Source: Escherichia coli (GTDB lineage Bacteria; Pseudomonadota; Gammaproteobacteria; Enterobacterales; Enterobacteriaceae). From it: DNA of 64,000 nucleotides. The stretch lies in assembly GCF_017348835.2 (NCBI RefSeq), contig NZ_CP071375.1. One strand, written 5' to 3'. The first letter of the stretch is position 1. Every line of letters starts with the position of its first letter. The notes below the pieces were generated by a model that was not told where the DNA came from, did no database searches, and was given only the letters and a program-made list of their open reading frames with translations. Shown in pieces: positions 2,240-29,024 of this stretch. Position numbers and translations under genes: made by a program.

Positions 2240-2965
2240 ATGGCAAGAATGATGACAACGAAAATTCAGCTAGAAAGTAACACGCTCTCAGCCCAGGTAC
2301 GAGACTACATACTGTCGTTAATTGCGCGGCAAAAGTTAACCGTCGGGATGCCGGTGCCCAGTGAAATGCAACTTACCCAGGAACTTGGCGTCAGTAAGGG
2401 CGTTGTCCGTGAGGCCTATCGTTCACTTGCCGCCCTTGGAATACTCGAAACCAAAAGTGGTAAAGTGCCACGCATTAAAGCCTTTGATTCTAGCGTGTTG
2501 CAGGTCATTTTTTCCTTTGCGACGCTGACCGAGCAGGTCAGTTCTTCACAGATACTTGCCGCCAGACGTTGGCTGGAAGCCGGATGCGTACAAATGGCGG
2601 CGCTCAATGGAGATGAAGAGGATTTTGCTGCGCTGAAGCAAGAAATGTCGTTGATACGCGAAGAGTTTTCTGACACCGAGCGTTTCCTGGAACATGATTT
2701 AAATTTCCATTTGCTGTTATCGCAGGCATCTAAAAATCCTTTATTCAGCATTCTGTTGCAGGCTTTACACACCCAGTTAACCCACTCAATGCGAGCGGGT
2801 CTGGAAGCACAACGCAATAATCATGAATATGAGCGTGGGATAATTGCATTGCACCAACGTGTTTGTGACTGTGTTTGTAATCGCGATGCTGAAGGTGCGA
2901 TGAAAGCCATGGATGAGCATTTCAACCTCTCTTCTGATGCTTTAAACAATCAGTCTCCTCTTTAA
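2240..2965 (+). CDS. GntR-family transcriptional regulator (FadR/FCD subfamily)
   Basis: ORF 2237..2965; N-terminal winged-HTH-like segment (QLTQELGVSKGVVREAYRSLAALGILE) and helical C-terminal domain; start ambiguous among TTG 2237 and ATG 2240/2249/2252. Confidence 0.7.
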   Translation: MARMMTTKIQLESNTLSAQVRDYILSLIARQKLTVGMPVPSEMQLTQELGVSKGVVREAYRSLAALGILETKSGKVPRIKAFDSSVLQVIFSFATLTEQVSSSQILAARRWLEAGCVQMAALNGDEEDFAALKQEMSLIREEFSDTERFLEHDLNFHLLLSQASKNPLFSILLQALHTQLTHSMRAGLEAQRNNHEYERGIIALHQRVCDCVCNRDAEGAMKAMDEHFNLSSDALNNQSPL

Positions 2966-2989
2966 TTAAGCGATTCAGCACCTTATCTC

Positions 2990-3013
2990 AGGCACCTTCG
3001 GGTGCCTTTTTTG
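2990..3013 (+). terminator. Rho-independent terminator after the GntR gene
   Basis: Hairpin AGGCACC-ttcg-GGTGCCT followed by TTTTTT. Confidence 0.5.
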
Positions 3014-3213
3014 TACCCGAAACGCCCTTCATAAAGTGAATGTTTTTTATTTATATTGTTATCAATAAGTTATCAAGTATTTTTAATTAAAATGGAAATT
3101 GTTTTTGATTTTGCATTTTAAATGAGTAGTCTTAGTTGTGCTGAACGAAAAGCGCACAACGATCCTTCGTTCACAGTGGGGAAGTTTTCGGATCCATGAC
3201 GAGGAGCTGCACG

Positions 3214-4815
3214 ATGACTGAACAGGCAACAACAACCGATGAACTGGCTTTCACAAGGCCTTATGGCGAGCAGGAGAAGCAAATTCTTACTGCCGAAGCG
3301 GTAGAATTTCTGACTGAGCTGGTGACGCATTTTACGCCACAACGCAATAAACTTCTGGCGGCGCGTATTCAGCAGCAGCAAGATATTGATAACGGAACGT
3401 TGCCTGATTTTATTTCGGAAACAGCTTCCATTCGTGATACAGACTGGAAAATTCGTGGTATTCCCGCGGACTTACAAGATCGTCGAGTCGAGATAACTGG
3501 CCCGGTTGAGCGCAAGATGGTGATCAACGCACTCAACGCCAATGTGAAAGTCTTTATGGCCGATTTCGAAGATTCACTGGCACCAGACTGGAACAAAGTG
3601 ATCGACGGGCAAATAAACCTGCGTGATGCAGTTAACGGCACCATCAGCTATACCAATGAAGCAGGCAAAATTTATCAGCTCAAGCCCAATCCAGCGGTTT
3701 TGATTTGTCGGGTACGCGGTCTGCACTTGCCGGAAAAACATGTCACCTGGCGTGGTGAGGCAATCCCCGGTAGCCTGTTTGATTTTGTGCTCTATTTCTT
3801 CCACAACTATCAGGCACTGTTGGCAAAGGGCAGCGGTCCCTATTTCTATCTGCCGAAAACCCAGTCCTGGCAGGAAGCGGCCTGGTGGAGCGAAGTCTTC
3901 AGCTATGCAGAAGATCGCTTTAATCTGCCGCGCGGCACCATCAAGGCGACGTTGCTGATTGAAACGCTGCCCGCCGTGTTCCAGATGGACGAAATCCTTC
4001 ACGCACTGCGTGACCATATTGTTGGTCTGAACTGCGGTCGTTGGGATTACATCTTCAGTTATATCAAAACGTTGAAAAACTATCCCGATCGCGTCCTGCC
4101 AGACAGACAGGCAGTGACGATGGATAAACCATTCCTGAATGCTTACTCACGCCTGTTAATCAAAACCTGCCATAAACGCGGTGCTTTTGCGATGGGCGGC
4201 ATGGCGGCGTTTATTCCGAGCAAAGATGAAGAGCGCAATAACCAGGTGCTCAACAAAGTAAAAGCGGATAAATCGCTGGAAGCCAACAACGGTCACGATG
4301 GCACATGGATCGCTCACCCAGGCCTTGCGGATACGGCAATGGCGGTATTCAACGACATTCTCGGCTCCCGTAAAAATCAGCTTGAAGTGATGCGCGAACA
4401 AGACGCGCCGATTACTGCCAATCAGCTACTGGCACCTTGTGATGGTGAACGCACCGAAGAAGGTATGCGCGCCAACATTCGCGTGGCTGTGCAGTACATC
4501 GAAGCGTGGATCTCCGGCAACGGCTGCGTGCCGATTTATGGCCTGATGGAAGATGCGGCGACGGCTGAAATTTCCCGTACCTCGATCTGGCAGTGGATCC
4601 ATCATCAAAAAACGTTGAGCAATGGCAAACCGGTGACCAAAGCCTTGTTCCGCCAGATGCTGGGCGAAGAGATGAAAGTCATTGCCAGCGAACTGGGCGA
4701 AGAACGTTTCTCCCAGGGGCGTTTTGACGATGCCGCACGCTTGATGGAACAGATCACCACTTCCGATGAGTTAATTGATTTCCTGACCCTGCCAGGCTAC
4801 CGCCTGTTAGCGTAA
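3214..4815 (+). CDS. aceB: Malate synthase A
   Basis: ORF 3196..4815; protein [20 protein letters not shown]... recognised as AceB; start trimmed to the ATG giving 533 aa. Confidence 0.95.
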
Positions 4816-6159: not shown

Positions 6160-6310
6160 AACGTTGCTGACTGTAGGCCGGATAAGGCATTTACGCCGCA
6201 TCCGGCAATCAGTGCACGATGCCTGATGCGACGCTTGCGCGTCTTATCATGCCTACAACCGTTGCCGAACGTAGGCTGGATAAGGCGTTTACGCCGCATC
6301 CGGCAATTCT
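6160..6310. repeat. REP (repetitive extragenic palindromic) cluster in the aceA-aceK intercistronic region
   Basis: Multiple copies of GCCGGATAAGGCGTTTACGCCGCATCCGGCA-type and GCCTGATGCGACGC-type palindromic units. Confidence 0.75.
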
Positions 6311-22955: not shown

Positions 22956-23024
22956 AACAGACTCCTGATTTTAGATAATAGGGACCCGCCGTAATTTTTA
23001 TTACGATAAACATCGGGAAGATTT

Positions 23025-23972
23025 TTATTTCAGTAATAGTTCAGCTGTGCTGCTATTCGTTACCAGACAATTAATATATTTTCCACGCAGTGCACCAATA
23101 ATTCCGCTGTATTTTTCTTCACTCATGGCAATGCCAATGGAATATCGTGCCTGCTTTAATTTATTCATTTCGATAGAGAGTGTTTTTTCGCTCATATTCG
23201 TTTCAACCATTGCGCCGTGAATATCAAAAAAGCGCGAGCAAATATCGCCAGCAACCTGGCGGGCATTCAGGTCGTCACTCTCTTCACCACCATAAAACGC
23301 ATGCCAGTTAGCGCCGTCGCGAATGGCCGGTGAGCCAATTCCCACCAGGGCGACATCCAGATTATCCCAGTAGGCAGAGATGGTTTTAAAGTGCTGAGAC
23401 TGCATGATCCCATTACGAATTAAGGGGTTATCCAGCAGAGCCGGAAAATCCGCGAGATGCGATTCCCCTTTCAGCTTCGCTGCCGCGCTGTAGGTTAATG
23501 TGTTTACGTGATAGCGGCTTTCGAGTTTACCGGACGGTCCGCCAATAATTGGCACGCAGATTAACTGCCGCGATTGCCCCGCTTGCGGCAAGTTTTCAAC
23601 CAGTGCGCTCACCGCGCGACCCCAGGAAAAACCGACAATATCGCCAGGCTCCAGCAAGCGATCCAGCAGTTGCGCGCCGTGTAACCCCATCATCGCCAGT
23701 TGAGTCTCTTCATCCTCATCATTTCCCGACACCACCACAACGTCTTTCAGGCCAAACTTTTGCTTCAGTTGCTGCTCGAGCCAGAGATTTTCGTTGTAGT
23801 CATAGTTGATGGCGATGGTGACAATTCCCTGATCGCGGCCTCGTTTAAGCAAGCGGCTGATGGTGGTGCGGTAAATACCCAGTTCGCGCGCGATTTGCGC
23901 CTGCGTCATATCCTGTTCGTAATAGAGTTGGGCAATCTTCACAATCAAACGGATATCGTCACTGTTTTCCAT
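23025..23972 (-). CDS. sorC: SorC-family transcriptional regulator of the sorbose operon
   Basis: ORF 23025..24056 trimmed to MENSDDIRLIVKIAQLYYEQDMTQAQIARELG... (HTH plus sugar-binding domain, about 315 aa). Confidence 0.8.
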   Translation of the reverse strand: MENSDDIRLIVKIAQLYYEQDMTQAQIARELGIYRTTISRLLKRGRDQGIVTIAINYDYNENLWLEQQLKQKFGLKDVVVVSGNDEDEETQLAMMGLHGAQLLDRLLEPGDIVGFSWGRAVSALVENLPQAGQSRQLICVPIIGGPSGKLESRYHVNTLTYSAAAKLKGESHLADFPALLDNPLIRNGIMQSQHFKTISAYWDNLDVALVGIGSPAIRDGANWHAFYGGEESDDLNARQVAGDICSRFFDIHGAMVETNMSEKTLSIEMNKLKQARYSIGIAMSEEKYSGIIGALRGKYINCLVTNSSTAELLLK

Positions 23973-23988
23973 TGCCGCCTCCTGGTTC

Positions 23989-24111
23989 TGCACATTTGTG
24001 CAAATACGCTTTCTCACCGCTTGATCTGATATAACCCCATCATGATGGCCTTTCAAAGCGATTTTTCACTCTTTGCATGGGGAGAAATAGCGCTTTCTCT
24101 TGCACATTTGT
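23989..24111. promoter_or_regulatory. sor promoter region with repeated TGCACATTTGT motif (one copy forms palindrome TGCACATTTGTGCA)
   Basis: Motif occurs at 23989-24002 and 24101-24111, just upstream of the sorC start; candidate SorC operator sites. Confidence 0.35.
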
Positions 24112-24319
24112 TTCTCTGCGCAGTAGTCATCAGCACAGGTGTGCAGCGATTCGTAATATGTTGATTATCCTTATTTTGCCAGGCAAATTTGCATTGTACT
24201 TCCGGAGACACTTTTGTGATAAAAGGCGTGGCAGATCACATTTAATTTCGACGTTGCCGCATAACTCTGTTTTTCCCTGCTAAGAGGTACGGTATATTCC
24301 GCGTTTTACAGGAGAATTT

Positions 24320-25192
24320 ATGCTGCCCGACTCATCAGTCCGTTTAAATAAATACATCAGCGAAAGCGGAATTTGCTCACGCCGCGAAGCGGATCGCTAT
24401 ATCGAGCAAGGCAATGTGTTCCTTAATGGCAAGCGAGCCACCATTGGCGATCAGGTGAAACCCGGCGACGTTGTGAAAGTAAACGGTCAGTTGATTGAGC
24501 CTCGGGAAGCCGAAGATTTGGTACTTATCGCCTTGAACAAGCCCGTCGGTATTGTCAGCACCACCGAAGATGGCGAGCGCGATAACATTGTCGATTTCGT
24601 TAACCACAGCAAACGCGTGTTCCCGATTGGTCGTCTGGATAAAGATTCCCAGGGGCTGATTTTCCTCACCAACCACGGTGATCTGGTGAATAAGATCCTG
24701 CGTGCTGGCAATGATCATGAAAAAGAGTATTTGGTAACGGTCGATAAACCGATTACCGATGAATTTATTCGTGGTATGGGGGCGGGAGTGCCGATCCTCG
24801 GGACGGTGACGAAAAAGTGCAAAGTCAAAAAAGAAGCACCGTTTGTCTTCCGCATTACCCTGGTGCAGGGGTTGAACCGTCAGATCCGTCGCATGTGCGA
24901 GCACTTTGGTTACGAAGTGAAAAAGCTGGAACGTACGCGCATTATGAACGTCAGCTTAAGCGGCATTCCGCTGGGTGAGTGGCGCGATTTAACTGACGAT
25001 GAGTTAATCGACCTCTTTAAGCTCATCGAAAATTCCTCTTCCGAGGCAAAACCTAAAGCGAAGGCCAAACCGAAAACAGCGGGCATCAAACGTCCAGTCG
25101 TTAAGATGGAAAAAACGGCGGAAAAAGGCGGTCGCCCGGCGTCCAACGGTAAGCGTTTTACCTCGCCGGGGCGAAAAAAGAAGGGGCGCTAA
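24320..25192 (+). CDS. rluF: 23S rRNA pseudouridine synthase F
   Basis: 290-aa ORF with S4 domain and RsuA-family catalytic region ([22 protein letters not shown]). Confidence 0.9.
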
Positions 25193-25993: not shown

Positions 25994-27121
25994 ATGATTA
26001 AAAAAATAAGCGTAAGAAAAGATCAGCTGGCATTACTCTCCAGAAACGGCGATTACTACAAAGTGCTGCATGCAGGCGAGCATATTTTACCCTGGTTAAA
26101 TACCCCGGAAGTGTTGCTGATTACGCTGGATGGTAGCGAAGTTCCCGACGTGCTTGCGGATTATTTGCGCCGCTTTCAGCCTGATTGGGTGGAGAAATAT
26201 TGCCTGGTGGCAGACTTGTCGGAGACTGAAGCCGGGGTGTTGTATATGGACGGTATTTTGTTGGAGATCCTGCCGCCATCAACGCGTCGTTTGTACTGGC
26301 GTGTAGAGGATGATTTGACGCTGGTGCGGATGAATACGCAGCAAGTCCCGGTACAAACGGAGGTGATGAATGCGGTATTACAGCCACGGCGCAAAGGAGT
26401 TGTTAAAGGCCGCGATGCGATACTGACGGTGCAGGTTCCGGCCTGGCATGTAGGCGTGCTGAAAATCGATGGTGAAACGCAGGCGCTGTTACCGCCGGGG
26501 CTGACTGCGTACTGGAAAATAAATCATCTGGTTGAAGCTGAAGTTGTCGACACCCGCTTGCAGGTACTGGAAGTCAGCGGGCAAGAAATCTTAACGAAAG
26601 ATAAGGTCAATCTGCGGATTAATCTCGCCGCTAACTGGCGCTATAGCGATGTGTTGCTGGCATTTAGTCAGCTAACGAAGCCGATTGATCATTTGTATCG
26701 GGAATTACAATTTGCCCTGCGTGAAGCGGTAGGTACGCGCACACTGGATGAACTGCTGGAAGATAAACAGGTCATTGATGACGTTGTTAGCGAGCAGGTG
26801 AAACTACGCATGAAGCCGTTCGGTATGGAGATCGCTTCGTTAGGAGTAAAAGATATCGTCCTGCCTGGCGATATGAAAAATATTCTTGCGCAACTGGTAG
26901 AGGCGGAGAAATCCGCGCAGGCCAATGTGATTCGCCGACGTGAAGAAACGGCAGCGACGCGCTCGTTACTGAACACCGCCAAAGTCATGGAGAACAATCC
27001 GGTAGCGTTGCGTTTAAAAGAGCTGGAAACGCTGGAGAGAGTGGCTGAGCGGATTGATAACATCTCTGTATTTGGCGGTCTGGATCAGGTTCTGCATGGG
27101 TTGGTTAATATCAAAGGGTGA
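25994..27121 (+). CDS. Soluble SPFH/band-7 (stomatin/prohibitin-like) domain protein with a novel ~170-aa N-terminal domain
   Basis: 375-aa ORF; C-terminal half has SPFH-like features (VSGQEILTKDKVNLRINLAANWRY...AEKSAQANVIRRREETAATRSL); no evident N-terminal transmembrane segment; AAGGA Shine-Dalgarno before the ATG. Confidence 0.7.
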   Translation: MIKKISVRKDQLALLSRNGDYYKVLHAGEHILPWLNTPEVLLITLDGSEVPDVLADYLRRFQPDWVEKYCLVADLSETEAGVLYMDGILLEILPPSTRRLYWRVEDDLTLVRMNTQQVPVQTEVMNAVLQPRRKGVVKGRDAILTVQVPAWHVGVLKIDGETQALLPPGLTAYWKINHLVEAEVVDTRLQVLEVSGQEILTKDKVNLRINLAANWRYSDVLLAFSQLTKPIDHLYRELQFALREAVGTRTLDELLEDKQVIDDVVSEQVKLRMKPFGMEIASLGVKDIVLPGDMKNILAQLVEAEKSAQANVIRRREETAATRSLLNTAKVMENNPVALRLKELETLERVAERIDNISVFGGLDQVLHGLVNIKG

Positions 27122-27918
27122 GTAACATGCCATTAAATGGAGTCAGTGCTGCGATGCGCGAAAGGGTATCGCAGCAGTTAAAAGAAATTGAACGTCGCTA
27201 TGGCGTGAAAGTGCTGTACGCCTGCGAATCGGGGAGTCGCGGCTGGGGATTTGCTTCGCCCGACAGCGATTACGATGTGCGGTTTTTGTATGTCCATCCG
27301 CTGGAATGGTATCTGCGGGTAGAGGCACCACGCGATGTTATCGAACTGCCCATCGACGACGAGTTAGATGTTTCCGGTTGGGAATGGCGCAAAGCGCTGG
27401 GATTGCTGAAAGGTGCGAATCCCACGCTAATTGAATGGCTGGATTCACCGGTGGTCTATCAGCAAGATGAAGAGACGATAACGGCGCTTAAGGCAATGGT
27501 CCCAACGTGGTTTTCTCCGTTGCGTGCGCGCTGGCATTACTATTCGATGGCGCAGAAAAACTTCCGCGGATATTTGCAGGGCGATGAAGTTCGACTGAAA
27601 AAATACTTTTACGTGCTGCGTCCGTTGCTGGCCGTGCGTTGGGTTGAAGCGGGAAAAGGCGTACCGCCAATGCGTTTTTCCGAATTGCTGGCGGGAAGTG
27701 AGTTGGATGCGGCCTTACGCGCAGAAATAGATGAATTACTGGAACGTAAACAGCGTGCGGGTGAAGCGGAATATGGCCCACGCCGTCCATTGCTACATGC
27801 GTTTATCCATGCGGAACTGGCGCGTGGGGAAATTCCGCCTGTGTTACCGGATAGTAGAGAAGGGGACGTTAAGAAACTGGATAGCTTACTGTACCAGACG
27901 GTAATGCGCCGGGCGTGA
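27118..27918 (+). CDS. Pol-beta-superfamily nucleotidyltransferase
   Basis: 266-aa ORF; ESGSRGWGFASPDSDYDVRF fits the hG[GS]x9-13DxD nucleotidyltransferase signature; GTG start at 27118 overlaps the upstream stop (GTGA), alternative ATG at 27127 with AGGGTG Shine-Dalgarno. Confidence 0.7.
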   Translation: MSNMPLNGVSAAMRERVSQQLKEIERRYGVKVLYACESGSRGWGFASPDSDYDVRFLYVHPLEWYLRVEAPRDVIELPIDDELDVSGWEWRKALGLLKGANPTLIEWLDSPVVYQQDEETITALKAMVPTWFSPLRARWHYYSMAQKNFRGYLQGDEVRLKKYFYVLRPLLAVRWVEAGKGVPPMRFSELLAGSELDAALRAEIDELLERKQRAGEAEYGPRRPLLHAFIHAELARGEIPPVLPDSREGDVKKLDSLLYQTVMRRA

Positions 27919-27933
27919 TGCCCGGCGTTATTT
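27906..27933 (+). terminator. Intrinsic terminator after the nucleotidyltransferase gene
   Basis: Hairpin CGCCGGGC-gtgat-GCCCGGCG overlapping the stop codon, followed by TTATTT. Confidence 0.5.
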
Positions 27934-27950
27934 CAGGTCATCAGCTTTTA

Positions 27951-28880
27951 TTATTCTTGTGCACTTCCGCTGATTTCATTTTGTATATGCGTTGCAATAT
28001 CGCAATTGGTTGCCGCTTGTGAACTAAATATCATCTTCTCACGCGAATACACCGCAAACTTATCTGCCAGGTTTGAAGCAAACACCTTGCTGGCATTTTC
28101 TGCTAGCAAATCGGTAACGATATCATGGTGATTTTTATCCACTTTGCGGGCGATATTTCCCGCCTCTTTGTCCTTATTATACCCTTCGTTGGTGCTTTCC
28201 CAGCTTAATGCCGCTGAGGTGGTTTTTATCATGACTTCTGTTCGGTAGCCTGCATCTTTGAGTTTTTTTAATGTTTGTAGCGGCGTAGCGGCATTACGAA
28301 ATGTTCCTTCGACAACAATATTGAGTTTATTGGCTATGGCCCTCTCTATTGCACGTTCGACCGTTTCGCCGGAAAATTTTGCCGTATGGGTAACAAAATC
28401 GTCGCCATAAGTTTGATATATATAATTAAAATCAGGGTGTAGAAATCTGAAATCATCACCATTAATAATCATTATATTATTCTTTGTTTCCCTTTTTGCT
28501 AATTCGATTAGGGCGGATTTTCCGGCTCCTGGTTGTCCACCTAAAACAAAACCAATGGGACTCTGCTGGGATGTGACGTCATGGTTTGTCAGACGCTGCC
28601 AAATAGAATCAAAAGACGCTTTATTTTCTGAATGCGCAGTATTATTAAATTCACGCTGATACTTTTTTCTGACCTGCTGGAGGCGTAACTTTCCCTGTGT
28701 AAAATCAACAAGTTCTGCTGGAGTGGAATAAAGATTGTCGCGATAGCTGACTAATTGTGATAGCTCATCGTCTGAGTCCTGAACTTGTGAGGAAAAACAA
28801 CTGTCGACGATATTTGATAAAAACGCGATGCACTGACTGGTGCCGTTTAAAAGTGCATCTTTTTCCATTAAAGTAGCCAT
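27951..28880 (-). CDS. ezeT: Single-chain zeta-toxin family protein (EzeT-like UDP-GlcNAc kinase toxin with N-terminal cis-antitoxin domain)
   Basis: ORF 27951..28886; Walker A GGQPGAGKS placed ~110 residues from the N-terminus (long N-terminal extension); zeta-toxin-like C-terminal region; likely ATG at 28880 preceded by AGGAG; AT-rich. Confidence 0.7.
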   Translation of the reverse strand: MATLMEKDALLNGTSQCIAFLSNIVDSCFSSQVQDSDDELSQLVSYRDNLYSTPAELVDFTQGKLRLQQVRKKYQREFNNTAHSENKASFDSIWQRLTNHDVTSQQSPIGFVLGGQPGAGKSALIELAKRETKNNIMIINGDDFRFLHPDFNYIYQTYGDDFVTHTAKFSGETVERAIERAIANKLNIVVEGTFRNAATPLQTLKKLKDAGYRTEVMIKTTSAALSWESTNEGYNKDKEAGNIARKVDKNHHDIVTDLLAENASKVFASNLADKFAVYSREKMIFSSQAATNCDIATHIQNEISGSAQE

Positions 28881-29024
28881 TAACACTCCTGTTAAATAAT
28901 ATTTTTCGGTGATTATAATACTGTTCTACAGGAGTGATTTTGCATTTCAGATATTATTTAATCTATGTTTGCAGTGAGGATGGCGTATAACAATTGGTGA
29001 GCGTTATACGCCAGTAGGAAAATA

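What the first reader, a model, noticed from the sequence alone, without database searches (positions are those of the whole stretch)
23989..24111. Repeated TGCACATTTGT motif upstream of sorC, candidate SorC operator
The motif occurs twice within about 120 bp immediately upstream of the sorC start, once as the palindrome TGCACATTTGTGCA. SorC-type regulators are autoregulatory and bind operators in their own promoter region.
Basis: seen in the sequence. Interest (0 to 1): 0.3.

Follow-up and report, generated by a model that had tools for sequence, protein, structure and literature searches.

The report
Conserved SorC operator sites at sor promoter
The repeated motif upstream of sorC is real and belongs to a set of three or four palindromic sites that are almost certainly where the sorbose regulator SorC binds its own promoter; this is an expected kind of element, but its layout offers a testable explanation of how SorC can both repress and activate.

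Summary
TGCACATTTGT occurs exactly at 23989-23999 and 24101-24111, and the first copy lies in the inverted repeat TGCACA-TT-TGTGCA.

A repeated 11-mer is not rare by itself: about 3.4 such pairs are expected per random 64 kb. The palindromic core GCAC-N4-GTGC is the real signal.
- It occurs only twice in the 64-kb window, both times in the sorC-rluF spacer.
- In 27 enterobacterial loci with a sorC orthologue (182 kb), all 53 occurrences lie within 400 bp upstream of sorC.

The motif follows the SorC-type recognition helix GIYRTTISR across Enterobacteriaceae, Yersinia, Brenneria and Bacillales, even where the neighbouring genes are not sorbose genes. It is absent from 14 homologues with other helices.

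S1 lies at about +19 to +34 of the only positionally conserved sigma-70-like promoter. S3 lies 143-144 bp upstream of S1 in three bacterial families. IHF-like and CRP-like sites sit further upstream.

The best reading is a set of SorC operators, with repression at S1, possibly through an S3-S1 loop. No binding data exist here. This is a new member of a known kind, of modest interest.

The parts
23988..24003 (.). S1 (O1): full 16-bp operator-like inverted repeat. It reads TTGCA-CAAATG-TGCAG on the sorC strand, with core GCAC-N4-GTGC at 23990-24001. Predicted position is +19 to +34, directly upstream of the ribosome-binding site.
   Evidence: In the 18-bp stretch 23987-24004 that contains it, 14 of 18 columns are invariant and 17 of 18 are at 85% or more across 25 orthologous regions. 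A core sits at the same position in Yersinia, Brenneria and K. pneumoniae.
24100..24115 (.). The other arm (24111-24115) is not conserved. Centre at about -86.5.
   Evidence: All 11 columns at 85% or more, against a mean of 0.56 for the missing arm. It is a full palindrome in Kluyvera and is absent in Yersinia and Brenneria.
24131..24146 (.). S3 (O3): inverted repeat GCACAGGTGTGC at 24133-24144. The arms are conserved and the 4-bp centre varies between genera. Centre at about -117.5, 143 bp from S1 and 31 bp from S2.
   Evidence: D2, I1. Searches show S3-S1 spacing of 143 bp in 22 of 23 sor loci with both cores (144 in Serratia). Arms are invariant at 6 of 8 columns while the centre is free. 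Spacing is 143-144 bp in Brenneria and Yersinia.
24206..24221 (.). S4 (O4): weaker related site CACTTTTGTG at 24209-24218. It reads ACACAAAAGTGT on the sorC strand in most orthologues (TCACAAAAGTGT in this window). Centre at about -192.5.
   Evidence: (D1). All 10 columns at 85% or more. Assigning it to SorC is an inference from its similarity to the core.
24028..24033 (-). Predicted -10 hexamer TATATC, inside the near-invariant block GGTTATATCAGATCA (24020-24039).
   Evidence: This is the only sigma-70-like promoter conserved in position: it ranks in the top 4 in 21 of 28 sequences. In the block, 18 of 20 columns are at 85% or more. TTATATCA lies 33 bp upstream of the S1 core in E. coli, Yersinia and Brenneria alike. 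The transcription start was not measured.
24051..24056 (-). Predicted -35 hexamer TTGAAA, with a 17-nt spacer to the -10. An A-rich, UP-element-like stretch lies just upstream.
   Evidence: The hexamer is TTGACA in Brenneria and TTGACT in Yersinia, with an 18-nt spacer.
24154..24166 (-). IHF-like site AATCAACATATTA, matching WATCAANNNNTTR. It lies 22 bp upstream of the S3 core and is preceded by an A-rich tract.
   Evidence: One search gives an exact match (5 in the window against 2.7 expected). The ATCA and TTA columns are conserved. Yersinia has an exact match at identical spacing from S3. The assignment is tentative.
24183..24192 (.). Conserved palindrome GCAAATTTGC (GCAAnTTTG across genera), with no assigned function.
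   Evidence: 6 of 10 columns at 85% or more.
24222..24243 (-). CRP-like site AAATGTGATCTGCCACGCCTTT. The left half TGTGATC is invariant or nearly so. The right half is weak, giving 7 of 10 core matches in this window.
   Evidence: It is not found at 2 or fewer core mismatches. TGTGA lies 96 bp upstream of the S3 core in both E. coli and Yersinia. The assignment is tentative.
23025..23972 (-). sorC, the first gene of the sorCDFBAME operon. It encodes the regulator: an N-terminal helix-turn-helix domain plus a PF04198 sugar-binding domain.
   Evidence: Its first 60 residues match K. pneumoniae SorC (PDB 2W48) at 59 of 60 positions (D47 for E47).
23973..24284 (.). The whole sor control region. 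It is present only in sor-positive E. coli; homology with sor-negative strains such as BL21 begins at 24285.
   Evidence: partial hits start at query position 346 of a query beginning at 23940.

Best explanation
The repeated motif is the binding site (operator) of SorC, the regulator encoded by the adjacent first gene of the L-sorbose operon.

The unit recognised is a 16-bp inverted repeat, TTGCA-N6-TGCAA, with core GCAC-N4-GTGC. It would be bound by a dimer of SorC N-terminal helix-turn-helix domains, in the same geometry as the B. subtilis DeoR half-operator TTGAA-N6-TTCAA.

The control region holds one perfect site downstream of the predicted promoter (S1, +19 to +34, abutting the ribosome-binding site). 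It also holds upstream sites S2 (half-site, -86), S3 (palindrome, -117) and probably S4 (-192), plus IHF-like and CRP-like sites.

Shown here: the sites exist, they are under strong purifying selection, they keep fixed spacing, and they co-occur with the SorC-type recognition helix whatever genes are regulated.

Inferred:
- Without sorbose, SorC on S1 blocks transcription of sorC and the operon, which is autorepression. As a tetramer it probably bridges S1 and S3 (143 bp), looping out the promoter.
- With inducer, the bridge is released and SorC remaining on S3 and S2 helps RNA polymerase, with CRP and IHF.

I put about 0.85 on the sites being SorC operators and about 0.35-0.4 on the looping switch.
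For: 1. Specificity. GCAC-N4-GTGC occurs twice in 64 kb, both times in this spacer. In 27 loci with a sorC orthologue (182,160 bp), 53 of 53 occurrences lie within 400 bp upstream of sorC.

2. Selection. Within the 18-bp stretch around S1, 14 of 18 columns are invariant. The S2 half-site has 11 of 11 columns at 85% or more. S3 arms are conserved with a free centre. At four-fold degenerate sorC sites only 1 of 79 is invariant.

3. The motif follows the DNA-binding domain, not the regulon.
- Terrilactibacillus, Paenibacillus, Pseudalkalibacillus and Bacillus have helix GIYRTTISR next to oxidoreductase and RpiA-like genes. They carry GCACAATTGTGC-type palindromes plus a second site 19-20 bp away.
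- Brenneria (dehydrogenase genes), Yersinia (a PTS operon) and Kluyvera (a shikimate-dehydrogenase-like gene) carry two or three full sites.
- Fourteen homologues with other helices have no exact core, and only one 1-mismatch match (L041), within -400 to +50 of the regulator start.
- Two Lactobacillales regulators with H in place of Y carry TCAC-N4-GTGA instead.

4. Family precedent.
- The SorC first 60 residues match 2W48 at 59 of 60 positions, and the recognition helix is unchanged.
- DeoR residues R34 and R39, which contact bases, align with SorC R35 and R40.
- S1 matches the DeoR OL site at 11 of 16 positions.
- The CggR operator also lies downstream of its transcription start, at +32 to +77.
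- SorC is a tetramer, and is reported as an activator with sorbose and a repressor without it.

5. Architecture.
- S3-S1 spacing is 143 bp in 22 of the 23 sor loci that carry both cores (144 in Serratia sp. H1w), and 143-144 bp in Brenneria and Yersinia.
- In Kluyvera the two operators are 101 bp apart, which is 112 minus 11, one helical turn.
- The only positionally conserved promoter lies between S2/S3 and S1.
- K. pneumoniae, the species in which SorC was studied, has the same layout.
Against: - There is no binding, footprint or transcription-start evidence here. The primary papers (Woehrl 1990; de Sanctis 2009) could not be read.
- The predicted -10 (TATATC) lacks the usual final T, so the promoter, and therefore the +19 to +34 position of S1, is a prediction.
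- S2 is only a half-site and is missing in Yersinia and Brenneria.
- Site spacings of 31, 112 and 143 bp do not match the compact two-turn tandem operators of DeoR and CggR. They also do not match the roughly 70 Angstrom separation of DNA-binding domains reported for the SorC crystal. One tetramer would need DNA looping, or several tetramers would be needed.
- S1 invariance could partly reflect 5'-UTR or ribosome-binding constraints.
- The CRP-like site is weak in E. coli (7 of 10) and lies about 211 bp from the predicted start.
Confidence: 0.8

Rival explanations
1. The sites are SorC operators but there is no loop. S1 is a simple roadblock or occlusion site bound on its own. S2, S3 and S4 are separate sites, bound by other tetramers, that only mediate activation or fine-tuning.
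For: The spacings do not fit the roughly 70 Angstrom separation of DNA-binding domains in the SorC crystal. DeoR and CggR use compact tandem operators. S2 and S3 are 31 bp apart and could be one tandem operator with one extra helical turn compared with the 19-20 bp seen in Firmicutes.
Against: S3-S1 distance is fixed at 143-144 bp across three families although the sequence between them diverges. The Kluyvera variant differs by exactly 11 bp. Independent sites would not need fixed spacing.
Confidence: 0.35
2. S1 acts as an RNA hairpin in the sorC 5' untranslated region, next to the ribosome-binding site. It would control translation or mRNA stability rather than serve as a protein-binding DNA site.
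For: The predicted transcript folds S1 into a 7-bp stem with a 4-nt loop. In most genera the 3' arm runs into the GGAG of the ribosome-binding site (GTGCAGGAG).
Against: - The fold is no better than shuffled sequence (z = -0.96).
- S1 never varies, so there is no covariation to test.
- The same motif recurs upstream of the predicted promoter (S2, S3, S4), where it would not be transcribed.
- It also recurs in promoter-overlapping positions in Firmicutes.
- The S3 centre varies while its arms stay fixed, which is the pattern of a protein-DNA site.
Confidence: 0.05
3. The sites bind a different factor, for example a regulator that recognises TGCAC/GTGCA-type arms such as NtrC, and not SorC.
For: From memory, the arms resemble NtrC half-sites (TGCACC-N5-GGTGCA). 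No binding data tie the sites to SorC.
Against: The spacing differs: 4 bp between the GCAC and GTGC arms against about 7 for NtrC. The motif co-occurs with the SorC-type helix in Firmicutes and in non-sorbose regulons, and is absent next to homologues with other helices. The outer base changes together with a helix substitution.
Confidence: 0.04
4. The repeat is a chance repeat with no function.
For: An 11-mer repeat within 150 bp is expected about 3 times per 64 kb. The pattern tool gives 2 matches against 2.1 expected.
Against: The sites are conserved far beyond neutral sites and are found only upstream of sorC in 27 loci.
Confidence: 0.01

Closest known systems
B. subtilis DeoR operator (SorC/DeoR subfamily; PMC11229326, PDB 7BHY and 8R7Y)
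   Same: - It is a 16-bp inverted repeat with 5-bp arms and a 6-bp spacer. TTGAACAAAATTTCAA and S1 TTGCACAAATGTGCAG match at 11 of 16 positions.
- It is bound by a dimer of a short N-terminal helix-turn-helix domain that is 48% identical to the SorC domain.
- The base-contacting arginines are conserved.
- The regulator is a tetramer.
- One strong palindrome is paired with a weaker second site.
   Different: The DeoR operator is one compact 39-bp unit at -60 to -21, with half-operators about two helical turns apart. Here the sites are dispersed at 31, 112, 143 and about 218 bp, and the best site lies downstream of the predicted start. DeoR is only a repressor; SorC is reported to activate as well.
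B. subtilis CggR operator at the gapA operon
   Same: The regulator is the first gene of its own operon. The operator lies downstream of the transcription start (+32 to +77), as S1 does. The tetramer uses inducer-sensitive bridging between dimers.
   Different: CggR has a different DNA-binding domain (winged helix). Its motif is different (CGGGAC-N5-TGTC direct repeats), and it has a single tandem operator.
Looping sugar regulators: AraC (O2-I1-I2), GalR (OE-OI), LacI (comparison from general knowledge)
   Same: Operators flank the promoter at a fixed distance of about 100-200 bp, and the regulator is oligomeric. A weak promoter-proximal site next to a strong one (S2 beside S3) recalls araI2 beside araI1. 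A CRP site and an architectural protein site are present: IHF here, HU in gal.
   Different: These are unrelated protein families. Looping by any SorC-family protein has not been shown, and here it is inferred only from conserved spacing.
E. coli LsrR sites in the lsr intergenic region
   Same: LsrR is a SorC-family tetramer with a homologous helix-turn-helix domain. It regulates its own gene and a divergent sugar-like uptake operon, together with CRP.
   Different: The recognition helix is different (LTRLKVSRLL). I did not compare the site sequences.

Membership tests
Operator of a SorC/DeoR-subfamily regulator | The cognate regulator, with a short N-terminal helix-turn-helix domain and a PF04198 sugar-binding domain, is encoded at the locus. 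| tested here: met
   sorC at 23025-23972 matches PF04198 with E = 3e-80. Its first 60 residues match K. pneumoniae SorC (2W48) at 59 of 60 positions.
Operator of a SorC/DeoR-subfamily regulator | A 16-bp inverted repeat with 5-bp arms and a 6-bp spacer, like DeoR OL. | tested here: met
   S1 is TTGCA-CAAATG-TGCAG and S3 is CTGCA-CACCTG-TGCTG on the sorC strand. S1 matches DeoR OL at 11 of 16 positions. S2 has one arm only.
Operator of a SorC/DeoR-subfamily regulator | The base-contacting residues of the recognition helix are conserved. | tested here: met
   DeoR R34 and R39 align with SorC R35 and R40. Neighbouring residues differ (S33 to Y34, P35 to T36), consistent with altered specificity.
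Operator of a SorC/DeoR-subfamily regulator | Two half-operators about two helical turns apart, forming one compact operator of 39-45 bp for a tetramer. | tested here: not met
   Centre-to-centre distances in the window are 31, 112, 143 and 75 bp. The Firmicute homologues do meet this feature, at 19-20 bp.
Operator of a SorC/DeoR-subfamily regulator | The site overlaps or adjoins the promoter of the regulated operon. | tested here: inconclusive
   The promoter is predicted only: TTGAAA-17-TATATC, conserved in position in 21 of 28 sequences. No transcription-start data are available.
Operator of a SorC/DeoR-subfamily regulator | The site is conserved in orthologous control regions and co-occurs with the DNA-binding domain. 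| tested here: met
Operator of a SorC/DeoR-subfamily regulator | Direct, effector-sensitive binding by the regulator. | not testable with these tools
   This needs a gel shift or footprint. A 2010 paper states that operators in the family were then known only for DeoR and CggR.
DNA-looping repression system | Two or more operators flank the promoter, and the regulator is oligomeric. | tested here: met
   S3 and S2 lie upstream and S1 downstream of the predicted promoter. The SorC tetramer is known from the literature.
DNA-looping repression system | Function depends on the helical phase between operators. | tested here: inconclusive
   Spacing is fixed at 143-144 bp in three families, and the natural Kluyvera variant differs by 11 bp. 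This is suggestive only; an experiment is needed.
CRP binding site | Match to TGTGA-N6-TCACA with flanking A/T. | tested here: inconclusive
   The left half and both flanks are perfect, the right half matches 2 of 5 in the window and 3 of 5 in several genera. The site is conserved and keeps its spacing in Yersinia.
IHF binding site | Match to WATCAANNNNTTR with an upstream A/T tract. | tested here: met
   Exact match at 24154-24166. It is conserved, and Yersinia has an exact match at the same distance from S3. Klebsiella has one mismatch. Binding was not tested.
Cis-regulatory RNA hairpin in the 5' UTR | A stable structure beyond chance, with compensatory changes. | tested here: not met
   z = -0.96 against shuffles. 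S1 is invariant, so no compensatory changes exist.

The most novel reading that the evidence does not exclude
SorC works as an AraC-like loop switch, a mechanism not shown for any SorC-family protein.

- Without sorbose, one tetramer bridges S3 and S1, 143 bp apart, and traps the promoter in a loop.
- With inducer, it lets go of S1 and occupies the adjacent weak half-site S2, 31 bp from S3. From there it activates together with CRP, brought close by an IHF bend.
- This would explain the dual activator and repressor behaviour noted since 1990.

A side result would be a readable protein-DNA code. Tyr34 in the helix would go with the outer G:C of the site, and His with T:A, as seen in Lactobacillales.
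Probability: 0.3. Interest if true: 0.6.

Novelty: new member of a known kind. Interest (0 to 1): 0.4.

Why it matters
SorC gave its name to a large family of sugar and quorum-sensing regulators, and its crystal structure is solved. Yet in the literature I could read, its DNA target is not defined, and a 2010 paper lists operators only for DeoR and CggR.

A precise, conserved site set with fixed geometry gives structural and genetic work on SorC concrete DNA targets. It also makes the long-standing question of how SorC both activates and represses directly testable.

The sor operon is present in about half of complete E. coli genomes and is enriched in pathogenic lineages (PMC12817954). Its control region may therefore also be of applied interest.

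The practical advance is modest, because a palindromic operator in the regulator's own promoter is what anyone would expect.

Tried and rejected
- The 11-mer repeat as evidence in itself was rejected, because such repeats are expected by chance.
- The promoter-like site the scan tool reported, TTATCA-18-TACAAT (24222 to 24193), was rejected. It is specific to this window and not conserved in other genomes.
- A sigma-54 promoter using the TTGCA of S1 as its -12 element was rejected. There is no conserved GG at -24, and SorC is not an enhancer-binding protein (reading).
- AATCAA as the end of a second -10 element (nAnAAT) was considered. It is less likely than an IHF site, because the TTA four bases further on is also conserved at fixed spacing.
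- The E. coli-specific palindrome GAGAAATAGCGCTTTCTC (24083-24100) and the CGCTTTCTC repeat are not conserved and were set aside.
- Literature: full-text searches for the site sequence and for a SorC operator or promoter found nothing that defines it. Woehrl 1990 and de Sanctis 2009 are not held, so I cannot exclude that the palindromes were already noted there or in a regulon database.
- The first protein search returned only close enterobacterial relatives and added nothing.
- One contig look-up (Orbus) found no record.
- Kluyvera was first treated as a sor orthologue. It has no PTS genes, so it counts as a different regulon with the same regulator type.

Full report
**Setting**

The window is from a sor-positive Escherichia coli. 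A 1.5-kb query around the finding is 100% identical to strain PE164, where the genes are annotated pepE, sorE, PTS IID/IIC/IIB/IIA, an SDR oxidoreductase, a sugar-binding transcriptional regulator, then divergently rluF.

- The regulator CDS is window 23025-23972 on the minus strand. rluF starts at 24320 on the plus strand.
- The protein has a PF04198 sugar-binding domain and an N-terminal helix-turn-helix domain. It matches the crystallised K. pneumoniae SorC (PDB 2W48) with E = 1e-183.
- Its first 60 residues match 2W48 at 59 of 60 positions (D47 for E47), and the recognition helix is unchanged.
- About 2,860 of 5,426 complete E. coli genomes carry this region. In sor-negative strains such as BL21, homology begins only at window 24285, 35 bp before the rluF start. 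Everything from 23973 to 24284 therefore belongs to the sor module, not to rluF.

**Checking the observation**

TGCACATTTGT is at 23989-23999 and 24101-24111, and nowhere else even with one mismatch. The first copy is part of TGCACA-TT-TGTGCA (23989-24002).

- A repeated 11-mer is weak evidence. Random Markov-1 sequences of this size give 3.35 +/- 2.1 such pairs within 150 bp, and the window holds about a dozen separate repeats of this kind.
- The repeat finder showed a third related element, AGCACAGGTGTGCA at 24131-24145, and a weaker CACTTTTGTG at 24209-24218.
- The common core GCAC-N4-GTGC occurs only twice in the 64 kb, both times in this 348-bp spacer. With 1.5 expected per 64 kb, P is about 3.5e-5.
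- A 16-mer consensus search with three mismatches finds no further site in the window. SorC therefore looks like a local regulator here.

**Conservation**

A scan of one genome per species returned 27 enterobacterial loci with a sorC orthologue (Escherichia, Pseudocitrobacter, Citrobacter, Klebsiella, Raoultella, Mangrovibacter, Serratia, Pantoea, Cedecea, Enterobacter, Entomohabitans, Kluyvera). Twenty-four show the sorD, sorF, sorB and sorA genes downstream. One locus (L006) is cut short, and the two Kluyvera loci lack these genes. I aligned the 400 bp upstream of sorC.

On the sorC strand the conserved blocks are, from distal to proximal:
- AAATGTGATC...CCTTT, a CRP-like site
- ACACAAAAGTGT (S4)
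- GCAAnTTTG
- AATCAAnnnnTTA, an IHF-like site
- GCAC-N4-GTGC (S3)
- CAAATGTGCAA (S2)
- GAAAAT..CTTTGA
- GGTTATATCAGATCA
- TTTGCACAAATGTGCAG (S1)
- the ribosome-binding site and the start codon

As a neutral benchmark I used four-fold degenerate positions of sorC in 25 of these genomes. They are nearly saturated: 1 of 79 is invariant, and the mean major-allele frequency is 0.60.

| Element | Conservation across 25 sequences |
|---|---|
| 18-bp stretch around S1 | 14 of 18 columns invariant |
| S2 half-site | 11 of 11 columns at 85% or more |
| S2 missing arm | mean 0.56 |
| S3 arms | 6 of 8 columns invariant |
| S3 4-bp centre | mean 0.67 |
| S4 | 10 of 10 columns at 85% or more |
| Segments between sites | mean 0.55-0.67 |

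Across the 27 loci (182,160 bp), all 53 GCAC-N4-GTGC occurrences lie within 400 bp upstream of sorC. K. pneumoniae itself shows the same layout.

**The motif follows the DNA-binding domain, not the sorbose genes**

Three Firmicute homologues are 43-48% identical to SorC and have the same recognition helix, GIYRTTISR. They sit next to GFO/IDH/MocA oxidoreductase and RpiA-like genes, not PTS genes.
- Their control regions still carry TTGCACAATTGTGC, CTGCACAATTGTGC, or TTGCACAATTGTAC with GTACATTTGTGCAAAGGGAGG.
- Each has a second site or half-site 19-20 bp away.

Fourteen more distant homologues with other helices have no exact core near their starts; only one (L041) has a 1-mismatch match.

A second round of homologues gave the following:
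- Bacillus sp. and P. polymyxa have a palindrome plus a half-site 19 bp on.
- Brenneria (56% identity, dehydrogenase genes) has three full sites, at -302, -174 and -31.
- Yersinia mollaretii (63% identity, a mannose-type PTS operon) has three full sites, at -304, -167 and -23.
- Kluyvera has a sorC-like gene (71% identity) plus a shikimate-dehydrogenase-like gene between rluF and pepE, and no PTS genes. Two full palindromes 101 bp apart flank TTGAAC-17-TATACC.
- Two Lactobacillales regulators of sorbose-type operons have His in place of Tyr in the helix (GIHRTTISR, NIHRSTISR). They carry TCAC-N4-GTGA in their control regions instead. The background is 7 per 340 kb. This is a suggestive protein-DNA covariation, but the two lineages are related to each other.

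**Geometry and the promoter**

A position-weight scan of all 28 sequences found only one sigma-70-like promoter conserved in position. It is TTGnnn-17-TATATC, with its -10 ending at window 24028, and it ranks in the top four in 21 of 28 sequences. The window-specific candidate reported by the scan tool, TTATCA-18-TACAAT, is not conserved.

Taking +1 at about 24021, which is a prediction, the sites fall as follows:

| Site | Predicted position |
|---|---|
| S1 | +19 to +34 |
| S2 centre | -86.5 |
| S3 centre | -117.5 |
| IHF-like core | -133 to -145 |
| S4 centre | -192.5 |
| CRP-like centre | -211.5 |

Spacing is conserved:
- S3-S1 distance is 143 bp in 22 of the 23 sor loci that carry both cores, and 144 in Serratia sp. 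H1w.
- It is 143 bp in Brenneria and 144 bp in Yersinia.
- TTATATCA lies 33 bp upstream of the S1 core in E. coli, Brenneria and Yersinia.
- In Yersinia the IHF-like match (AATCAACCCATTA) is 22 bp, and TGTGA 96 bp, upstream of the S3 core, exactly as in E. coli.
- Kluyvera's operator pair is 101 bp apart, which is the 112 bp of S2-S1 minus 11.

**Comparison with known systems**

In B. subtilis DeoR, a dimer of a homologous helix-turn-helix domain binds TTGAA-N6-TTCAA. That domain is 48% identical to the SorC domain. A tetramer needs the palindrome plus a weaker second site.
- S1 (TTGCA-N6-TGCAG) has the same geometry and 11 of 16 identical bases.
- The DeoR base-contacting arginines R34 and R39 align with SorC R35 and R40.
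- CggR, whose gene is also first in its own operon, binds downstream of its start at +32 to +77.
- A 2010 paper states that operators in this family had been identified only for DeoR and CggR. It speculates that a compact SorC tetramer represses and an induced form activates.
- SorC is described as an activator with sorbose and a repressor without it (citing Woehrl 1990).

I could not read Woehrl 1990 or de Sanctis 2009. Full-text searches found no paper that defines the site. Prior description there, or in a regulon database, cannot be excluded.

**Mechanism**

Shown: a family of palindromic sites that is specific to SorC-type regulators, under strong selection, and arranged at fixed distances around a conserved promoter.

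Inferred:
- SorC bound to S1 blocks RNA polymerase or elongation, repressing sorC and the operon.
- Because S3-S1 spacing is fixed and SorC is a tetramer, the two sites are probably bridged, looping out the promoter.
- The inducer breaks the bridge. SorC on S3 and the adjacent half-site S2 (31 bp away, one helical turn more than the 19-20 bp tandem of Firmicutes) then supports activation with CRP and IHF.
- The dispersed spacing fails the compact tandem operator feature of DeoR and CggR. This is a member of the operator kind with a different layout, not a copy of theirs.

**Rivals**

- A chance repeat is excluded by conservation.
- An RNA hairpin at S1 folds (7-bp stem) but no better than shuffles (z = -0.96). 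It also cannot explain the untranscribed upstream sites or the variable centre of S3.
- Another binding protein is unlikely, because the motif co-occurs with the helix across phyla.
- A no-loop version, with independent roadblock and activation sites, remains a serious alternative for the mechanism.

**Verdict**

This is an expected kind of element, with a layout that is informative for an old, niche question. Interest is 0.4, and the novelty class is a new member of a known kind.

Noticed in passing
window 23973-24284; junction at 24284/24285: The sor module is present in about 2,860 of 5,426 complete E. coli genomes. In sor-negative strains such as BL21, homology resumes 35 bp upstream of the rluF start. 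The rluF -35 region therefore differs between sor-positive and sor-negative strains.
   Followed up: partly
L046 474-1171 (strain NT1F10; the sorC-sorD spacer, about window 22956-23024): Several pig and cattle isolates carry an IS1A insertion between sorC and the downstream SDR gene (sorD). This should be polar on the sorbose structural genes.
   Followed up: partly
L023 and L024 (Kluyvera), 2965-4757: At the same rluF-pepE chromosomal site, Kluyvera has a two-gene cassette instead of the seven-gene sor operon. It holds a SorC-like regulator (71% identity) and a shikimate-dehydrogenase-like gene. The control region keeps two full operator palindromes 101 bp apart.
   Followed up: partly
L051 -95; L052 -91 and +1004 (relative to the regulator start): Lactobacillales SorC homologues with His instead of Tyr in the recognition helix have TCAC-N4-GTGA instead of GCAC-N4-GTGC. 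This may be a protein-DNA specificity covariation, but it rests on two related lineages only.
   Followed up: partly
window 24083-24100, and 24007-24015 with 24091-24099: An E. coli-lineage palindrome GAGAAATAGCGCTTTCTC abuts S2, and a 9-bp direct repeat CGCTTTCTC occurs next to both S1 and S2. Neither is conserved in other genera.
   Followed up: partly
window 24183-24192: The palindrome GCAAATTTGC (GCAAnTTTG across genera) lies between S4 and the IHF-like site. It looks like S1 with the inner C and G removed. No factor is assigned.
   Followed up: no
window 57437-57538: A 30-bp tandem repeat (3.4 copies, 90% matches, A-rich) lies near the 5' end of a 340-codon ORF (57379-58401). It would encode a 10-residue protein repeat.
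   Followed up: no
window 6190-6209 and 6288-6307: A 20-bp direct repeat TTTACGCCGCATCCGGCAAT occurs 98 bp apart. It looks like a REP-type (repetitive extragenic palindrome) repeat.
   Followed up: no
window about 25994-28886: Between yjbD and lysC, the matching genome annotates a slipin-family protein, a DNA polymerase beta superfamily protein and a zeta-toxin family protein. This may be a small accessory island.
   Followed up: no
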